The position numbers and the translations under genes were made by a program. Positions 8,659 to 11,792 of a stretch of 33,353 nt of DNA are shown piece by piece. This stretch comes from Candidatus Nanopelagicales bacterium. Lineage in GTDB: Bacteria > Actinomycetota > Actinomycetes > S36-B12. The notes beneath the pieces are model-generated. The model was not told where the DNA came from. It worked only from the letters and a program-made list of their open reading frames with translations, and did not search any database. The stretch lies in NCBI GenBank assembly GCA_044360385.1, contig JBIKKK010000003.1:1-33353 (forward strand), in the 5' to 3' direction. Positions within the stretch are counted from its first letter, which is position 1, and each line of letters opens with the position of its first letter.

Positions 8659-9885
8659 GTGAAGCGCATCACCGTCGAGCAACTCAAGACCGTCCTGGCT
8701 CACCTGCCGCCCAACCCGCGCATCATCTCCTCGGGCAACTTCGCCACCCCGCACACCCTGCTGCGCGTCGTCGACGAGCAAGTACCCGAATACACACTGC
8801 ACATGCTCAACGCCCAGCCGGGCATCCCGGATCGCGAGGGCGTGACCTACGAGACGTGCTTCGTCGGGCCCGCGATGCGCCACTCGCCGCGCCTGCGCTA
8901 CATCCCGAGTCGGCTGAGCCTCGTGCCCGTGCTCTATCGGGGCCTGCTGCGGCCGGATGCCGTGATCGTCCACGCGTCCGCCCCTCGCTACGACACCGTG
9001 AGCCTCGGAATCGAGGTCAACGTCATGCCCGCGGCGATCGAAGCGGCACGTGCGCTGGGTGTACCCGTGATCGTGCAGGCGAATCCGCAGATGCCCTACA
9101 CCTACGGCGACGGTCAGCTCTACGACACCGAGATCGACTATCTGGTCGAGGTGGACGAACCCATCTCGGAGGCCGCTCTGTGGGAGCCCTCGGACATCTC
9201 GCAGCAGATCGGTGACCTCATCGCCGCGCAGGTGCTCGACGGCTCCACGCTGCAGCTCGGCATCGGTGGGGTCCCGGATGCCGTGCTGCAGCGGCTCGTA
9301 GAGCGCCGGGGCCTGCGCATTTGGTCGGAGATGTTCTCCGACGGCGTCCTCGCGCTGGAGCACCGGGGCGTACTGGACTCCCAGATCCCGCTGACCGCAT
9401 CCTTCCTCTTCGGCTCGCGTGACCTCTACGACTTCGTGCACCTCAATCACCGCGTGCGCATGCTGCGCACGGAGACGACCAACGACCCCGGGCGCATTGC
9501 GCGCCAGCGGCAGATGACCAGCGTCAACTCCGCGCTCCAGGTCGACCTCTTCGATCAGGCCAATGCCAGTCGTATGAAGGGGCGCATCTATAGCGGCTTC
9601 GGCGGATCCGTCGACTTCATCGACGGCGCGCTCCACTCCCGCGGCGGCGCGAGCTACGTCGCCCTGCCCTCGTGGCATCCGAAGGCGCAGGTGTCGACCA
9701 TCGTGCCGCGTCTGGAGGAGCCCGTGACGTCGTTCCAGCACAGCTACGTCGTGACGGAGCAGGGTGTGGCACCCGTCGTCGGGCTGAGCGAACGCGACCA
9801 AGCCCGCTCCCTCATCGAAAACGCCGCCCACCCGGACGCCCGCGAGGGGCTGTGGGATGCGGCGCGGGCACAGGGTCTCGCTTAG
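8659..9885 (+). CDS. Acetyl-CoA hydrolase/transferase (4-hydroxybutyrate CoA-transferase-like)
   Basis: TLQLGIGGVPDAV, SEMFSDG, SGFGGSVDF, YVVTEQG, AHPDARE; GGAGG RBS. Confidence 0.9.
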   Translation: MKRITVEQLKTVLAHLPPNPRIISSGNFATPHTLLRVVDEQVPEYTLHMLNAQPGIPDREGVTYETCFVGPAMRHSPRLRYIPSRLSLVPVLYRGLLRPDAVIVHASAPRYDTVSLGIEVNVMPAAIEAARALGVPVIVQANPQMPYTYGDGQLYDTEIDYLVEVDEPISEAALWEPSDISQQIGDLIAAQVLDGSTLQLGIGGVPDAVLQRLVERRGLRIWSEMFSDGVLALEHRGVLDSQIPLTASFLFGSRDLYDFVHLNHRVRMLRTETTNDPGRIARQRQMTSVNSALQVDLFDQANASRMKGRIYSGFGGSVDFIDGALHSRGGASYVALPSWHPKAQVSTIVPRLEEPVTSFQHSYVVTEQGVAPVVGLSERDQARSLIENAAHPDAREGLWDAARAQGLA

Positions 9886-9934
9886 TTTCTAGTTTCGCCT
9901 TCGAACCCGTCGCGAAGGGGGATAGAGTCGCGCC

Positions 9935-10579
9935 ATGCTCGGCGGTGCCCCTCAACACCGTGCGATGGCTCAGGGTGCGATGAAACAGAGTGGGATGACA
10001 CAGGGTCCGATGGCACTGCGTGCCCTTGCCTTGAGCACCGTCATCACCCTGGTGACCGCGGCCGCCCACGCGACCCACGAACATCCTCCGTCGGGGATGC
10101 TCCTGGTCCCGACCGCGGTGATCCTCGCCGGACTGTGCCTGCCGGTGAGTGCACGACGGCTGAGCTGGGCCCGCGCGCTCGGCACCATGGTGGTCGGCCA
10201 ATTCGCGCTGCACGCCTGGCTCGCCTGGTTCGCGCTTCCTGCTGTCGGCTCCGGGGTGCCCACCCACGCCCTGCATCACGGGCCATCTGCATCGGTGCTC
10301 GTGGCACGTGATTTCAGTGGGCTGATTCCGTCACCGGGGATGGTGCTGGCACACCTCGTGGCAGCAGGGGTGCTGGCGGTGCTCCTCGTGCATGCTGACT
10401 GGCTCTTGAGTGCGGCGGCGGCGATCCTGGGCGGCACTCTTCGTCCTCCCGCCTTCGCTTGCCGCCCTGTCGTATCCGTCGCGCCGACCTCGCTCTTCGA
10501 CCGACCAGCCGCGCCGCGGATCCCGGTCGTGCTCATCCACAACCTCGTGAGGAGGGGACCGCCGGCGTACTGCGTCTAG
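9935..10579 (+). CDS. His/Met-containing membrane protein ending in RRGPP; candidate ribosome-arrest leader of ycnI-copC
   Basis: TAGAGT-N6-ATG at 9935; about four hydrophobic segments carrying His (AAHATH, QFALH, MVLAH); Pro-rich linker; C-terminal HNLVRRGPPAYCV. Confidence 0.75.
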   Translation: MLGGAPQHRAMAQGAMKQSGMTQGPMALRALALSTVITLVTAAAHATHEHPPSGMLLVPTAVILAGLCLPVSARRLSWARALGTMVVGQFALHAWLAWFALPAVGSGVPTHALHHGPSASVLVARDFSGLIPSPGMVLAHLVAAGVLAVLLVHADWLLSAAAAILGGTLRPPAFACRPVVSVAPTSLFDRPAAPRIPVVLIHNLVRRGPPAYCV

Positions 10580-10642
10580 TCCGCAGTACGCCGAGTTATC
10601 GGTCCCTATTTCGCGCGCGATCGCGCGCCCTCACGAAAGGTT
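10541..10642 (+). promoter_or_regulatory. Predicted branched mRNA structure sequestering the ycnI ribosome-binding site
   Basis: AACCTCGTGAGG (10541-10552) pairs with CCTCACG-AA-AGGTT (10629-10642, contains GAAAGG); GGGACCG (10555-10561) with CGGTCCC (10600-10606); CGGCGTACTGCG (10563-10574) with CGCAGTACGCCG (10582-10593); GCGCGC-GATC-GCGCGC (10613-10628). Confidence 0.75.
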
Positions 10643-10647
10643 CCATC

Positions 10648-11139
10648 ATGCTTGCTCGTTCGCTCCGCCGCGTCATCGCGGCGTCCGCTTCGGCCGCACT
10701 CATCGCCGGAGCGGGTCTCATCGCAGCATCACCGGCATCTGCCCATGCATCTGTCCAGCTCTACGGAGGAAAGGCCACTGCGGGCGGATACGGCGCTCTT
10801 TGGATGCGCATCCCCCATGGCTGCGACGGCTCGCCCACGAAGCGCGTCATGGTCACGCTGCCCGCGTCATTCGGGTCAGCCAAAGCCCAGATGATCGGTG
10901 GCTGGAAGGCCAAGGTCGTCACCAGGGCTAACGGTTCACGTCAGGTCATTTGGAACGCCACCGGGGATCCACTCCCCGACGATCAGTTCGCCGATTTCGG
11001 GATCTCGGTGAAGTGGCCGACAACGGAGGGCGAGGTCCGTCTCCCCACGGTCCAGACCTGTCTCAAGGGCAAGGTGGCATGGATCGGCGCCGACGTACCC
11101 ACGGTGGATGTCGGTCCGGCCTCCGGCGGCGGTCACTAG
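10648..11139 (+). CDS. YcnI/DUF1775 family copper-binding secreted protein
   Basis: GAAAGG RBS; signal peptide ending ASA-H; RIPHGCDGSPT, GW, PTVQTC..G.VAW. Confidence 0.85.
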   Translation: MLARSLRRVIAASASAALIAGAGLIAASPASAHASVQLYGGKATAGGYGALWMRIPHGCDGSPTKRVMVTLPASFGSAKAQMIGGWKAKVVTRANGSRQVIWNATGDPLPDDQFADFGISVKWPTTEGEVRLPTVQTCLKGKVAWIGADVPTVDVGPASGGGH

Positions 11140-11792
11140 TGTCGCGACGGTGGGTGGTGGCGGCCAGCATGCTGGCCGCCACCACCGCACTCTCCACGTT
11201 GTCGGCAAGCCCTGCATGGGCCCATGCGCGCGTGATCGCCAGCTCACCGGCTGAGGGCTTGGTCGTGAATTCGCTGACGACCGCCCGACTCACCTTCAAC
11301 GAGTCGGTGAGCGGCACAAGCTCGGCCCTACGTGTGCTCACGTCGTCCGGTGCCACGCTGTCGGGGCCCGCACGCGTGTCCGGCTCTTCGGTGACAGCAC
11401 CGGTGCGTTCCATCAATGGGGGGCGCTACGCACTCGTCTACCGGGTGACGAGCGCGGACGGTCACGTCATCGCCAACTCCATCGGATTCTCCGTGCGCCT
11501 CTCGGACCCGCCGTCGTCGGCGACGATCGTGCGTCTCTCAGGCGAGTCTGTGGGGATGTCCGGGACGCGTGTGGGCACGCGTACACTCCGACTGCGCGGT
11601 GACCTCCGCAATGCGATCGGACAGGTGGTCTGGCGCCTGCCGGGAATCCCTGAGCCCTTCACATGGTCGCTGGCGAAGGGTCGGGCCAAGGGGATGCTTC
11701 CCTTCGCCGGCTCCTACTCGGTGACGGTCACGGCATATTCCTCGGCCTCGTCGACGCGCACGCTCACCGGGGTCGTCCGAATCAGCCCTTAG
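11139..11792 (+). CDS. copC: CopC family copper-binding protein with C-terminal extension
   Basis: AWA-HARVIASSPAEG, LTFNE, YRVTSADGHV; TAGTG overlap with ycnI stop. Confidence 0.8.
   Translation: MSRRWVVAASMLAATTALSTLSASPAWAHARVIASSPAEGLVVNSLTTARLTFNESVSGTSSALRVLTSSGATLSGPARVSGSSVTAPVRSINGGRYALVYRVTSADGHVIANSIGFSVRLSDPPSSATIVRLSGESVGMSGTRVGTRTLRLRGDLRNAIGQVVWRLPGIPEPFTWSLAKGRAKGMLPFAGSYSVTVTAYSSASSTRTLTGVVRISP

What the first reader, a model, noticed from the sequence alone, without database searches (positions are those of the whole stretch)
9935..11792. Candidate copper-sensing ribosome-arrest switch: RGPP membrane leader whose stall site unzips the ycnI-copC ribosome-binding site
Seen: the ORF before ycnI-copC is a membrane protein with His in or next to its hydrophobic segments (AAHATHEH, QFALH, HALHH, MVLAH), a Pro-rich linker, and the ending RRGPP plus four residues. 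The codons for N-L-V-R-R-G-P-P-A-Y-C (10541-10573) form the 5' arms of three nested helices. The outermost is 12 bp with a 2-nt bulge and pairs with 10629-10642, which contains the ycnI SD (GAAAGG) just before ATG 10648. Established: RAPP/RAGP-type motifs stall ribosomes (SecM, ApdA, ApdP); stalling opens SD-hiding hairpins (secM, mifM); proteobacterial DUF2946 leaders (CruR, CutF) use CxxC plus an RAPP-like motif to control copper genes. Inference: this is an actinobacterial analogue without CxxC. A ribosome paused at the Pro codons (10559-10564) would melt the helices and allow ycnI-copC translation, and copper binding or membrane-insertion force would release the arrest and shut it off. The direction of regulation is a hypothesis.
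Basis: partly seen in the sequence, partly recalled or inferred. Interest (0 to 1): 0.88.

Follow-up and report, generated by a model that had tools for sequence, protein, structure and literature searches.

The report
RGPP ribosome-arrest leader before ycnI-copC
A small histidine-rich membrane protein that ends in the ribosome-stalling motif RGPP sits in front of two copper-binding genes and probably controls them by stalling its own translation; this kind of leader was described in 2025, so this is a new member whose RNA suggests how the control works.

Summary
ORF 9935-10579 encodes a 214-aa protein with four predicted membrane helices that ends VRRGPPAYCV. Its last codons form the 5' strands of three nested helices, and the outermost pairs with 10629-10642, which overlaps the ycnI Shine-Dalgarno.

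The arrest-peptide reading is well supported:
- R207, P209 and P210 are invariant in 37 of 37 homologues (24-94% identity), together with H93, M136 and H140.
- 20 of 20 tested downstream genes in relatives encode extracytoplasmic copper proteins (YcnI, PCuAC, CopC, SCO1).
- The TM4 histidine lies 68-69 residues before the arrest proline in 32 of 37 loci.

The RNA is under nucleotide-level selection, seen as suppressed synonymous change and stems conserved more than loops. Compensatory covariation is almost absent, and predicted Shine-Dalgarno unmasking appears in only 18 of 37 related loci.

The class is already published. Fujiwara et al., EMBO J 2025, describe RGPP/RAPP transmembrane leaders upstream of YcnI genes in Actinomycetota, and their S. 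lividans SLIV_18480 arrests translation. They leave the output mechanism open.

Verdict: a new member of a known kind, with a testable Shine-Dalgarno-unmasking mechanism. Copper sensing and the sign of regulation remain inferred.

The parts
9923..9928 (+). -10-like hexamer TAGAGT, 6 nt before the ATG; suggests a leaderless transcript that starts at or next to 9935
   Evidence: TAG(A/G)(A/G/C)T sits 6 nt before the ATG/GTG in the 8 distinct window-type loci printed, and 8 nt before it in L019. The spacing rule for leaderless mRNAs is from general knowledge (recalled).
9935..10579 (+). Leader ORF: 214-aa histidine-rich four-helix membrane protein ending VRRGPPAYCV (candidate arrest peptide and sensor)
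   Evidence: No Pfam or NCBIfam family. The N-terminal ML..GP is conserved.
9992..10441 (+). Four predicted membrane helices: residues 20-46, 54-72, 78-99 and 134-169. Conserved H45, H93, H114/H115, M136 and H140 all lie at the ends inferred to face outward.
   Evidence: AlphaFold2 model, mean pLDDT 74, with 85-93 per 10-residue block through most of the helices. Invariant columns. Topology is inferred from the Arg-rich 73-77 loop and the C-terminal tail.
10442..10534 (+). Variable, Pro-rich, disordered linker (residues 170-200). Its sequence is not conserved but its length is.
   Evidence: Alignments; pLDDT about 46-62 per 10-residue block. The H140-to-P209 spacing is 68-69 residues in 32 of 37 proteins and 32 of 37 loci.
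10550..10564 (+). Arrest core R206-R207-G208-P209-P210, encoded AGG AGG GGA CCG CCG. Predicted stall has P209 in the P site and P210 in the A site.
   Evidence: Invariance. AGG is 6.1% of Arg codons and GGA 11.8% of Gly codons in this genome. Stall position is by analogy with the CruR toeprint in PMC12992588.
10541..10552 (+). 5' strand of the outer helix (codons N-L-V-R)
   Evidence: Pair table. The core 10545-10551 is paired in 10 of 10 window-type sequences.
10629..10642 (+). 3' strand of the outer helix; overlaps the ycnI Shine-Dalgarno
   Evidence: G10635, A10636 and G10639 are paired in 10 of 10 sequences, G10640 in 7 of 10.
10554..10607 (+). Middle helix, 10554-10561 with 10600-10607 (Gly-Pro codons GGGGACCG with CGGUCCC)
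   Evidence: 96.3% of cells paired; 4 pairs vary on one side only, to G-U.
10563..10593 (+). Inner hairpin across the stop codon TAG 10577-10579. It is a perfect 12 bp here and imperfect in most relatives.
   Evidence: 88.3% of cells paired, and two pairs are broken in 6 of 10 sequences.
10613..10628 (+). GC hairpin GCGCGC-N4-GCGCGC, stacked next to the outer helix
   Evidence: 100% paired with a variable loop. Replaced by a different hairpin at the same place in L050-L052.
10635..10650 (+). ycnI ribosome-binding site: Shine-Dalgarno GAAAGG 10635-10640 and ATG 10648-10650
   Evidence: Invariant in 13 of 13 sequences of the genus.
10648..11139 (+). ycnI (DUF1775): signal peptide, then a His as the predicted first mature residue
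   Evidence: Pfam PF07987, E 9e-24.
11139..11792 (+). CopC-domain protein. Its GTG start overlaps the ycnI stop (TAGTG).
   Evidence: Pfam PF04234, E 1e-16; sequence.

Best explanation
The window holds a three-gene unit: leader, ycnI and copC.

The leader:
- It is probably transcribed without a 5' untranslated region.
- It encodes a four-helix membrane protein whose conserved His and Met residues (H45, H93, H114/115, M136, H140) cluster at the outer face. This is a likely extracytoplasmic copper site.
- Its C-terminus carries RGPP, a motif shown elsewhere to arrest bacterial ribosomes robustly, with the first Pro in the P site.

The proposed switch:
1. A ribosome held at 10559-10564 covers the 5' strands of all three nested helices.
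2. The strand 10629-10642 is freed, so a second ribosome can start on ycnI. copC follows by start/stop overlap.
3. Once arrest is released, the ribosome runs 5 codons to the stop. There it no longer covers 10541-10552, the outer helix re-forms, and ycnI initiation falls.

Arrest duration is set by the state of the nascent protein. At the arrest point the fourth helix has just left the tunnel (its end is 40 residues from the peptidyl-transferase centre), and its metal ligands M136 and H140 sit a fixed 68-69 residues away. My preferred reading is that copper-dependent docking of helix 4 pulls on the chain and releases arrest. Low copper would then prolong arrest and raise the YcnI/CopC copper-acquisition proteins.

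Shown here: the anatomy, the conservation and the linkage to copper genes. From the literature: RGPP arrest. Inferred: Shine-Dalgarno unmasking, copper as the signal, and its sign.
For: Arrest motif:
- VRRGPP is invariant in 24 of 24 close homologues, while the preceding ~35 residues vary.
- R207, P209 and P210 are invariant in 37 of 37 proteins at 24-94% identity. G208 is near-invariant, and the one exception has RAPP.
- RGPP is depleted in this genome (4 observed, 12.9 expected; controls AGPP 15/20.6, AAPP 28/28.7, PPGR 12/12.9).
- Published: RGPP gives the most stable arrest and resists EF-P. RGPP/RAPP leaders are enriched upstream of YcnI genes and are mostly transmembrane. SLIV_18480 (4 TM, three conserved His plus one Met) arrests in vitro and in B. 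subtilis, and Arg-to-Ala abolishes it (PMC12992588).

Sensor:
- H93, M136 and H140 are invariant; H45 and H115 are present in at least 90%.
- Four helices are predicted.
- The H140-P209 spacing is 68-69 in 32 of 37 proteins and 32 of 37 loci, although the H93-H140 distance ranges from 25 to 50.

Linkage: the downstream gene is YcnI (8), PCuAC (8), CopC (3) or SCO1 (1) in 20 of 20 relatives tested.

RNA:
- z = -6.2.
- With a ribosome at the Pro codons the MFE goes from -88.0 to -46.4 kcal/mol and the outer helix is lost. With a ribosome at the stop codon the outer helix persists.
- The cost of opening the ribosome-binding site falls from 9.2 to 4.8 kcal/mol in the window-type sequence. It falls by at least 2.5 kcal/mol in 18 of 37 loci, against 5 of 37 for a ribosome placed 33 nt upstream. 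The same holds in L050-L052, where a stop-codon ribosome has no effect.
- Synonymous variation occurs in 48 of 56 amino-acid-invariant codons elsewhere in the ORF but in 3 of 10 within the last 13 codons (p = 7e-4).
- In the spacer, 7 of 36 paired columns vary against 21 of 32 unpaired columns (p = 1.7e-4).
- The architecture is kept with different hairpin sequences in L050-L052 and L019.
- The element is single-copy in the genome.
Against: - There is no experiment on this protein. Homology to SLIV_18480 itself was not tested because its sequence was not at hand.
- Compensatory covariation is nearly absent: 0 of 30 consensus pairs and 1 of 39 pairs, not above shuffles.
- Only 3 of the 6 Shine-Dalgarno nucleotides are paired in all 10 window-type sequences. 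The AACC/GGUU extension is unpaired in 3 to 5 of 10 sequences at three of its four pairs.
- The arrest-site duplex with the ribosome-binding site is matched by 7 of 71 other segments of the ORF.
- 19 of 37 related loci show no predicted unmasking. That includes 7 of the 8 PCuAC-linked loci tested by Pfam that were also scored; the eighth, L043, changes in the opposite direction, and so does its untested sister locus L042.
- In several distant loci a ribosome at the stop codon opens the site as well as an arrested one: 13 of 37 loci fall by at least 2.5 kcal/mol.
- The homology searches used profiles that include the C-terminal motif and helix 4, so recovery of the motif is partly built in.
- The 68-69 ruler loosens to 64-83 in more distant families of the class.
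- The two studied copper leaders differ from this model in one respect each. CruR works through Rho termination, not Shine-Dalgarno masking. In CutF, copper induces stalling rather than relieving it.
Confidence: 0.6

Rival explanations
1. Same arrest sensor, different output. The stalled ribosome blocks Rho (or otherwise prevents premature termination or polarity) between the leader and ycnI, as in Bordetella CruR. On this reading the helices are incidental or act as pause or stability elements.
For: CruR, the best-studied copper-responsive RAPP leader, works through Rho-dependent termination (PMC9426467, passages read). The spacer has more C than G (25 C, 17 G of 68). Half of the related loci, especially those linked to PCuAC with 84-180-nt spacers, show no predicted Shine-Dalgarno unmasking.
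Against: The 68-nt spacer is almost fully base-paired, which is a poor Rho loading site (general knowledge, recalled). Selection acts on stems rather than loops and on synonymous sites of the 5' strands. The conserved helix ends on the Shine-Dalgarno in all 13 sequences of the genus.
Confidence: 0.15
2. Same switch, opposite sign. Copper binding prevents arrest release, so copper induces stalling as in CutF, and YcnI/CopC are made when copper is high.
For: [quoted passage not shown] CopC family members also occur in copper-resistance operons (recalled).
Against: In CruR, copper relieves arrest. The downstream families here (YcnI, PCuAC, SCO1, CopC) are mostly linked to copper acquisition or cuproenzyme assembly (recalled from general knowledge). 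No oxidase or efflux pump is in the unit. Nothing in the sequence decides the sign.
Confidence: 0.25
3. There is no regulated signal. RGPP causes a constitutive pause and the helices simply couple ycnI translation to leader translation, fixing stoichiometry; or the pause monitors membrane insertion (Sec/YidC capacity) rather than copper.
For: Any ribosome passing 10541-10574 opens the helix transiently. The end of helix 4 lies 40 residues from the arrest proline, a distance at which membrane insertion alone is reported to pull on arrest peptides (recalled from force-profile studies, not checked here).
Against: The invariant His/Met set and its fixed distance to the arrest site are not needed for simple coupling. 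The downstream genes are copper proteins in 20 of 20 cases, never Sec or YidC.
Confidence: 0.12
4. No arrest. The ORF is an ordinary copper-handling membrane protein whose RRGPP tail has a structural or sorting role, and the hairpins are a terminator, a stabiliser or a protein-binding palindrome.
For: The protein is long (214 aa) and well conserved for a leader. A 4-TM His/Met protein could itself bind or pass copper.
Against: RGPP is depleted in this genome and is shown to arrest in 7 of 7 S. lividans proteins that carry it near the C-terminus. The motif always lies 2-14 residues from the stop, with an unconserved tail. No terminator-like site lies in the spacer. The palindrome sequences differ between relatives while hairpin potential is kept. 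The element is not a genomic repeat.
Confidence: 0.05

Closest known systems
RGPP/RAPP transmembrane leaders upstream of YcnI-family genes in Actinomycetota; tested example S. lividans SLIV_18480 (Fujiwara et al., EMBO J 2025, PMC12992588)
   Same: C-terminal RGPP a few residues from the stop; four membrane helices; three conserved His plus one Met; a copper-related secreted protein encoded downstream on the same strand; phylum Actinomycetota.
   Different: This one comes from an uncultured 2.3-Mb, 68% GC genome. Record titles of close relatives read Candidatus Nanopelagicales or uncultured Actinomyces. Direct homology to SLIV_18480 was not tested. The paper's main text does not mention a stem-loop, Shine-Dalgarno, hairpin or spacing (0 occurrences each) and states that the output mechanism is open. 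Its appendix figures could not be seen.
CruR (Bordetella pertussis, DUF2946)
   Same: A copper-responsive leader with a C-terminal R-x-P-P arrest motif, a fixed spacing between metal ligands and motif (45 residues there, 68-69 here), and a copper-acquisition gene downstream.
   Different: CruR is an exported soluble protein with CxxC, and its output is Rho-dependent termination. The protein here has no DUF2946 match, no CxxC and four membrane helices, and the predicted output is an RNA switch at the ribosome-binding site.
CutF (Rhodobacter capsulatus, DUF2946)
   Same: The nascent chain senses extracytoplasmic copper, and stalling melts a stem-loop that shields the ribosome-binding site of the next gene.
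   Different: CutF uses a signal peptide, CxxxC and a PPP motif sensitive to EF-P. Copper induces stalling and the target is a detoxifying oxidase.
SecM-secA, MifM-yidC2, VemP-secDF2 monitoring substrates
   Same: A membrane-targeted nascent chain, a C-terminal arrest (RAGP in SecM), release by pulling force, and a stalled ribosome that opens a Shine-Dalgarno-hiding structure.
   Different: Those monitor the protein-export machinery that they regulate. Here the regulated genes are copper proteins and the leader has a conserved metal-ligand set.
ApdA (actinobacterial RAPP arrest peptide upstream of secDF)
   Same: Actinobacterial, with an R-A/G-P-P core.
   Different: ApdA is a short secreted peptide that regulates secDF and has no conserved metal ligands.

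Membership tests
RAPP-like (R-A/G-P-P) ribosome arrest peptides | R-[AG]-P-P core a few residues from the C-terminus | tested here: met
   RRGPP followed by 4 residues. R207, P209 and P210 invariant in 37 of 37 proteins.
RAPP-like (R-A/G-P-P) ribosome arrest peptides | N-terminal localisation signal (signal peptide or membrane helices) | tested here: met
   Four predicted helices: 20-46, 54-72, 78-99 and 134-169.
RAPP-like (R-A/G-P-P) ribosome arrest peptides | Elongation arrest shown by peptidyl-tRNA accumulation or a toeprint, abolished by Arg-to-Ala | not testable with these tools
   Needs in vitro translation. Shown for 7 S. lividans proteins and for CruR in PMC12992588, not for this protein.
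YcnI-linked transmembrane RGPP leaders (SLIV_18480 type) | A YcnI or other copper-related secreted protein encoded directly downstream on the same strand | tested here: met
   DUF1775 E 9e-24, then CopC E 1e-16. 20 of 20 relatives have YcnI, PCuAC, CopC or SCO1.
YcnI-linked transmembrane RGPP leaders (SLIV_18480 type) | Four membrane helices with three conserved His and one Met | tested here: met
   H93, M136 and H140 invariant; H45 and H115 present in at least 90%; four helices. The description of SLIV_18480 is taken.
YcnI-linked transmembrane RGPP leaders (SLIV_18480 type) | Detectable sequence homology to SLIV_18480 itself | not tested
Indirect evidence: the family profile hits 9 of 10 genomes of a 7-10-Mb genus of the same class, with up to 5 copies. 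13 of the 20 class-level ORFs keep all five ligand columns and all 20 end in RGPP or RAPP.
DUF2946 (CruR/CutF) | Match to the Pfam DUF2946 model | tested here: not met
   0 Pfam families at E up to 1; 0 NCBIfam families.
DUF2946 (CruR/CutF) | Conserved CxxC/CxxxC copper motif in an exported soluble domain | tested here: not met
   No CxxC in the 214 aa. Of the Cys residues only C213 is conserved, and only within the close group.
Shine-Dalgarno-hiding stem-loop opened by a stalled ribosome (secM, mifM and cutF type) | A helix includes the downstream Shine-Dalgarno, and its 5' strand lies in the footprint of the arrested ribosome | tested here: met
   10541-10552 pairs with 10629-10642. The helix is lost with a ribosome at P209 and kept with one at the stop codon. 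In the window 4 of 6 Shine-Dalgarno nucleotides are paired.
Shine-Dalgarno-hiding stem-loop opened by a stalled ribosome (secM, mifM and cutF type) | Structure conserved, with covariation, in relatives | tested here: inconclusive
   91.5% of cells are paired, against 33-50% when partners are slid. Only 1 compensatory pair of 39, which shuffles reach (93 of 500). Support comes from synonymous-site and stem-versus-loop tests and from subgroup architecture. Unmasking is predicted in 18 of 37 loci.
Rfam RNA families | Match to any curated covariance model | tested here: not met
   0 matches at E up to 1 in 9800-10800.

The most novel reading that the evidence does not exclude
This locus supplies the missing output step for the whole class of copper-linked RGPP leaders.

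The leader would be a single-protein transmembrane metal sensor with no kinase and no transcription factor. An outward-facing His3-Met site is completed by the last membrane helix and held at a fixed 68-69-residue distance from the arrest proline. Periplasmic copper occupancy is thereby converted into tension on the nascent chain. The arrest codons themselves, or in several relatives the Pro-Pro codons CCUCC acting directly as the anti-Shine-Dalgarno, form the RNA strand that hides the next gene's ribosome-binding site.
Probability: 0.35. Interest if true: 0.7.

Novelty: new member of a known kind. Interest (0 to 1): 0.45.

Why it matters
The 2025 paper that defined these leaders asks whether arrest regulates the downstream genes and by what mechanism. 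This locus offers a compact, conserved and mutable candidate answer:
- a 107-nt element in which the arrest codons are one strand of a helix that ends on the ycnI Shine-Dalgarno;
- a fixed ligand-to-arrest spacing that predicts a force-based read-out of extracytoplasmic copper.

It also shows that the system exists in small-genome, uncultured freshwater-type actinobacteria, with a leaderless leader gene. If confirmed, it would be a second, non-DUF2946 route by which nascent membrane proteins report metal status across the membrane.

Tried and rejected
Searches that found nothing:
- Family and fold searches for the leader: Pfam and NCBIfam, Foldseek against PDB (no match at E up to 0.001), ESM Atlas (only unnamed Actinomycetota clusters).
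- Rfam for the RNA: none.

Analyses replaced or insufficient:
- Mean unpaired probability of the Shine-Dalgarno did not respond, because weak alternative pairings replace the helix. It was replaced by the free-energy cost of opening the ribosome-binding site.
- Automatic choice of downstream start codons picked internal or wrong-frame starts in many loci. Starts were then set by hand from the Shine-Dalgarno and signal-peptide context.
- Covariation was insufficient.

Expression data: one riverine metatranscriptome held 6% of the sampled words. Laying four runs gave one 120-nt identical contig at 11065-11184 and three short unlike pieces, with nothing on the leader or spacer. No inference is drawn from this.

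Hypotheses rejected:
- Genomic repeat element: the 107-nt element is single-copy.
- Intrinsic terminator in the spacer: the only terminator-like site is 9864-9881.
- Palindromic protein operator: the sequences differ between subgroups while the hairpins persist.
- Other C-terminal R[AG]PP ORFs in this genome: the two examined, on contigs C250 and C39, look like wrong-frame ORFs, rich in Arg and Ser with no plausible downstream gene.

Material not available:
- Appendix figures S5-S7 of PMC12992588 may show SLIV_18480 alignments, neighbourhoods or spacing. Supplements are closed, so they were not seen.


Full report
**Observation.** The ORF at 9935-10579 (+) encodes 214 residues ending VRRGPPAYCV. 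It matches no Pfam or NCBIfam model at E up to 1. The next two genes match DUF1775/YcnI (10648-11139, E 9e-24) and CopC (11139-11792, E 1e-16). The copC GTG overlaps the ycnI stop codon.

RNA 10530-10665 folds at -66.1 kcal/mol, with z = -6.2 and 0 of 200 shuffles as stable.
- 10541-10552 pairs with 10629-10642, with A10637 and A10638 bulged.
- 10554-10561 pairs with 10600-10607.
- A perfect 12-bp hairpin, 10563-10574 with 10582-10593, spans the stop codon.
- A GC hairpin at 10613-10628 sits beside the outer helix.

The Shine-Dalgarno GAAAGG is 10635-10640 and the ATG is 10648.

**The protein family.** A word-indexed search found 57 homologues. An exhaustive phmmer search found 18 cluster representatives.
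- In 24 aligned sequences (33-93% identity), V205-R-R-G-P-P210 and C213 are invariant, while residues ~168-200 are not conserved.
- In 37 sequences at 24-94% identity the only invariant columns are H93, M136, H140, R207, P209 and P210. H45, H115, R206 and G208 are present in at least 90%, and one member has RAPP.
- AlphaFold2 (mean pLDDT 74) predicts helices at 20-46, 54-72, 78-99 and 134-169 and a disordered tail from 170.
- The Arg-rich 73-77 loop and the Arg-rich tail suggest an N-in, C-in topology. By that inference all the conserved His and Met lie at the outer ends of helices 1, 3 and 4 and in the 100-133 loop.
- No solved fold matches, and the ESM Atlas shows only unnamed actinobacterial clusters.

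**Genomic context in relatives.** Profile searches gave:
- 8 loci in species genomes and 6 in metagenomes;
- matches in 30 of 301 genomes of the order and 13 of 173 genomes of the family;
- matches in 19 of 401 genomes of the phylum, all in the same class. These include 9 of 10 genomes of a 7-10-Mb genus, with up to 5 copies.

All 44 loci (37 distinct sequences) have an open frame of at least 170 codons that ends in RGPP plus 2-9 residues. The 20 class-level frames end in RGPP or RAPP plus 5-14 residues. The profiles include helix 4 and the motif, so this recovery is partly built in.

The identity of the downstream gene is independent of the search. In 20 of 20 loci tested it is a secreted copper protein: DUF1775/YcnI in 8, PCuAC in 8, CopC in 3 and SCO1 in 1.

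**A ruler.** The distance from the invariant helix-4 histidine (H140) to the first arrest proline is 68 or 69 residues in 32 of 37 aligned proteins and in 32 of 37 order-level loci. The linker sequence is unconserved, and the H93-H140 distance ranges from 25 to 50. In more distant families of the class the distance is 64-83. Helix 4 ends 40 residues before P209, so at the arrest point it has just left the ribosomal tunnel.

**Motif rarity and codons.** The figures below come from 981 long, high-GC3 ORFs of the window's genome.
- RGPP occurs 4 times against 12.9 expected.
- RAPP occurs 4 times against 18.0 expected.
- The controls are close to expectation: AGPP 15/20.6, AAPP 28/28.7, PPGR 12/12.9.
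- The arrest core is encoded AGG AGG GGA. AGG is 6.1% of Arg codons and GGA is 11.8% of Gly codons.

**Is the RNA selected?**
- Among 10 distinct window-type sequences, 48 of 56 amino-acid-invariant codons elsewhere in the ORF show synonymous variation, against 3 of 10 in the last 13 codons (Fisher p = 7e-4).
- In the 68-column spacer, 7 of 36 paired columns vary against 21 of 32 unpaired ones (p = 1.7e-4).
- 91.5% of pair cells are standard pairs, against 33-50% when partners are slid by 1-3 columns.
- Only one pair shows a compensatory change (A-U to G-C, column 7 with 108), and shuffles reach this in 93 of 500. RNAalifold finds 0 compensatory pairs of 30. Covariation therefore does not prove the structure.
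- A divergent subgroup of the genus (L050-L052, with three Arg before GPP) keeps the CGUGAG/CUCACG outer helix next to GAAAGG, a Gly-Pro-codon helix, an inner hairpin and a helix-adjacent hairpin, the last two with different sequences.
- In another genus (L019, 33% protein identity), the codons CCAUGUGUG just before RRGPP pair with the CACAUGG that overlaps the Shine-Dalgarno. This is the best of 71 ORF segments.
- The 107-nt element is single-copy in the genome and matches no Rfam family.

**Does an arrested ribosome open the site?** I forced the footprint -15 to +16 around the P209 codon to be unpaired.
- This removes all three nested helices: the MFE goes from -88.0 to -46.4 kcal/mol. A ribosome at the stop codon leaves the outer helix intact (-55.2).
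- The ensemble cost of opening -15 to +5 of ycnI in the window-type sequence falls from 9.2 to 4.8 kcal/mol with the arrested ribosome. It is 6.4 with a stop-codon ribosome and 9.6 with a ribosome 33 nt upstream (L001).
- Over 37 loci the means are 8.7, 6.3, 7.1 and 8.3 kcal/mol.
- The fall is at least 2.5 kcal/mol in 18 of 37 loci (10 of 11 window-type, 8 of 26 others), against 5 of 37 for the upstream control.
- Nineteen loci show no fall. Seven of the eight Pfam-tested PCuAC-linked loci are among these 19. L042 and L043 change in the opposite direction.
- In 13 loci a stop-codon ribosome opens the site as well.
- In L050-L052 the arrest effect is present and the stop-codon ribosome has none.
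- In several lineages the best partner of the Shine-Dalgarno is the stretch right at the arrest site, whose pyrimidine-rich Pro-Pro codons read CCUCC in some of them (L022, L029, L036).
- For the window-type sequence the simple duplex score is matched by 7 of 71 other ORF segments.

**Promoter.** A TAG(A/G)NT hexamer lies 6 nt before the ATG/GTG in the 8 distinct window-type loci printed, and 8 nt before it in L019. In the window it is TAGAGT at 9923-9928. This suggests a leaderless mRNA. The sequences upstream of it are hairpin-capable but not conserved, and are probably the terminator of the preceding CoA-transferase gene. No TANNNT hexamer occurs in 10580-10647, and the consensus scan found no promoter there. 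That scan also missed the likely leader promoter, so it is weak evidence.

**What is known.**
- Fujiwara et al. (EMBO J 2025, PMC12992588; outline, sections 14 and 15 and searched passages read) report the following.
  - RGPP gives the most stable arrest and resists EF-P.
  - RGPP is the most excluded tetrapeptide in many phyla.
  - RGPP/RAPP ORFs are over-represented upstream of YcnI, PCuAC, TonB-receptor and PepSY genes.
  - The YcnI-linked ones are mostly transmembrane, and Actinomycetota is the Gram-positive group that has them.
  - SLIV_18480 of S. lividans has four membrane segments, and three conserved His plus one Met are predicted to form a copper site.
  - SLIV_18480 arrests in B. 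subtilis and S. lividans PURE systems and in vivo, dependent on Arg.
  - The authors state that whether, and how, arrest regulates downstream genes is open.
  - The main text has no occurrence of stem-loop, secondary structure, Shine-Dalgarno, hairpin or spacing. The appendix was not visible.
- A search for SLIV_18480, RGPP, YcnI, leaderless and Nanopelagicales found only that paper holding two or more of the terms.
- CruR (PMC9426467, passages read): copper sensed through CxxC relieves RAPP arrest, which allows Rho-dependent termination. The CxxC-RAPP spacing is conserved at 45 residues.

**Conclusion.** The leader is best read as a member of the published class of YcnI-linked transmembrane RGPP arrest peptides. 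It is not a DUF2946 protein, since both defining features that were tested are not met.

The most likely mechanism is an arrest-dependent opening of a helix that abuts and partly covers the ycnI Shine-Dalgarno. Arrest duration would be set by copper-dependent docking of helix 4.
- Shown: the anatomy, motif and ligand conservation, the copper linkage, and nucleotide-level selection.
- From the literature: the arrest itself.
- Inferred: Shine-Dalgarno unmasking. This is supported in this lineage and not general across the family.
- Inferred: copper as the signal.
- Inferred: the sign of regulation.

Confidence in the whole statement is 0.6. Novelty: a new member of a known kind. Interest is moderate, because the locus makes the open output question directly testable.

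Noticed in passing
window 9960-10016: A 15-nt tandem repeat (3.8 copies, consensus GTGCGATGACACAGG) encodes the M-x-Q-G-x units of the leader's N-terminal cytoplasmic tail. Copy number differs between close relatives: protein lengths step by 5 residues (199, 204, 209, 214), and L011 carries more units.
   Followed up: partly
window 9923-9934: A -10-like TAGAGT lies exactly 6 nt before the ATG and is conserved as TAGRNT in relatives. The leader gene is probably leaderless, and no conserved operator is seen upstream, which fits post-transcriptional control.
   Followed up: partly
window 9898-9918: An inverted repeat, CCTTCG-N9-CGAAGG, lies between the stop of the CoA-transferase-like gene (TAG 9883-9885) and the -10 element. 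Relatives have different hairpin-capable sequences at this place, so it is probably the upstream gene's terminator.
   Followed up: no
window 11137-11141: The ycnI stop TAG and the copC start GTG overlap (TAGTG), which suggests translational coupling. In both predicted proteins a His directly follows the signal-peptide-like A-x-A motif and would be the first mature residue.
   Followed up: no
L022, L029, L036 (also L037, L038, L043): In several other genera the best predicted partner of the downstream Shine-Dalgarno is the stretch at or just after the Gly-Pro-Pro arrest codons. These codons read CCUCC in L022, L029 and L036, so the arrest site itself acts as the anti-Shine-Dalgarno.
   Followed up: partly
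L023, L024, L032, L034, L040, L041, L043, L044: Homologues linked to PCuAC have longer spacers (64-180 nt) and show no predicted unmasking of the ribosome-binding site by an arrested ribosome. They may use another output, such as Rho-dependent termination as in CruR.
   Followed up: no
G575, G393, G408 and other genomes: Large (7-10 Mb) genomes of one genus of the same class carry 2-5 paralogues of the His/Met RGPP membrane protein. This suggests several parallel copper-responsive leaders per genome.
   Followed up: no
whole genome G000: RGPP and RAPP are about 3-4.5-fold under-represented in long ORFs of this genome, while AGPP, AAPP and PPGR are near expectation. The leader is the only convincing ORF with the motif near its C-terminus. 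No ApdA-like leader was seen with my filter (at least 60 aa, GC3 at least 0.72) in this 87%-complete assembly.
   Followed up: partly
window 11065-11184: One 120-nt contig of a riverine metatranscriptome is identical to the ycnI-copC junction. It shows only that this sequence is present in an RNA library.
   Followed up: no
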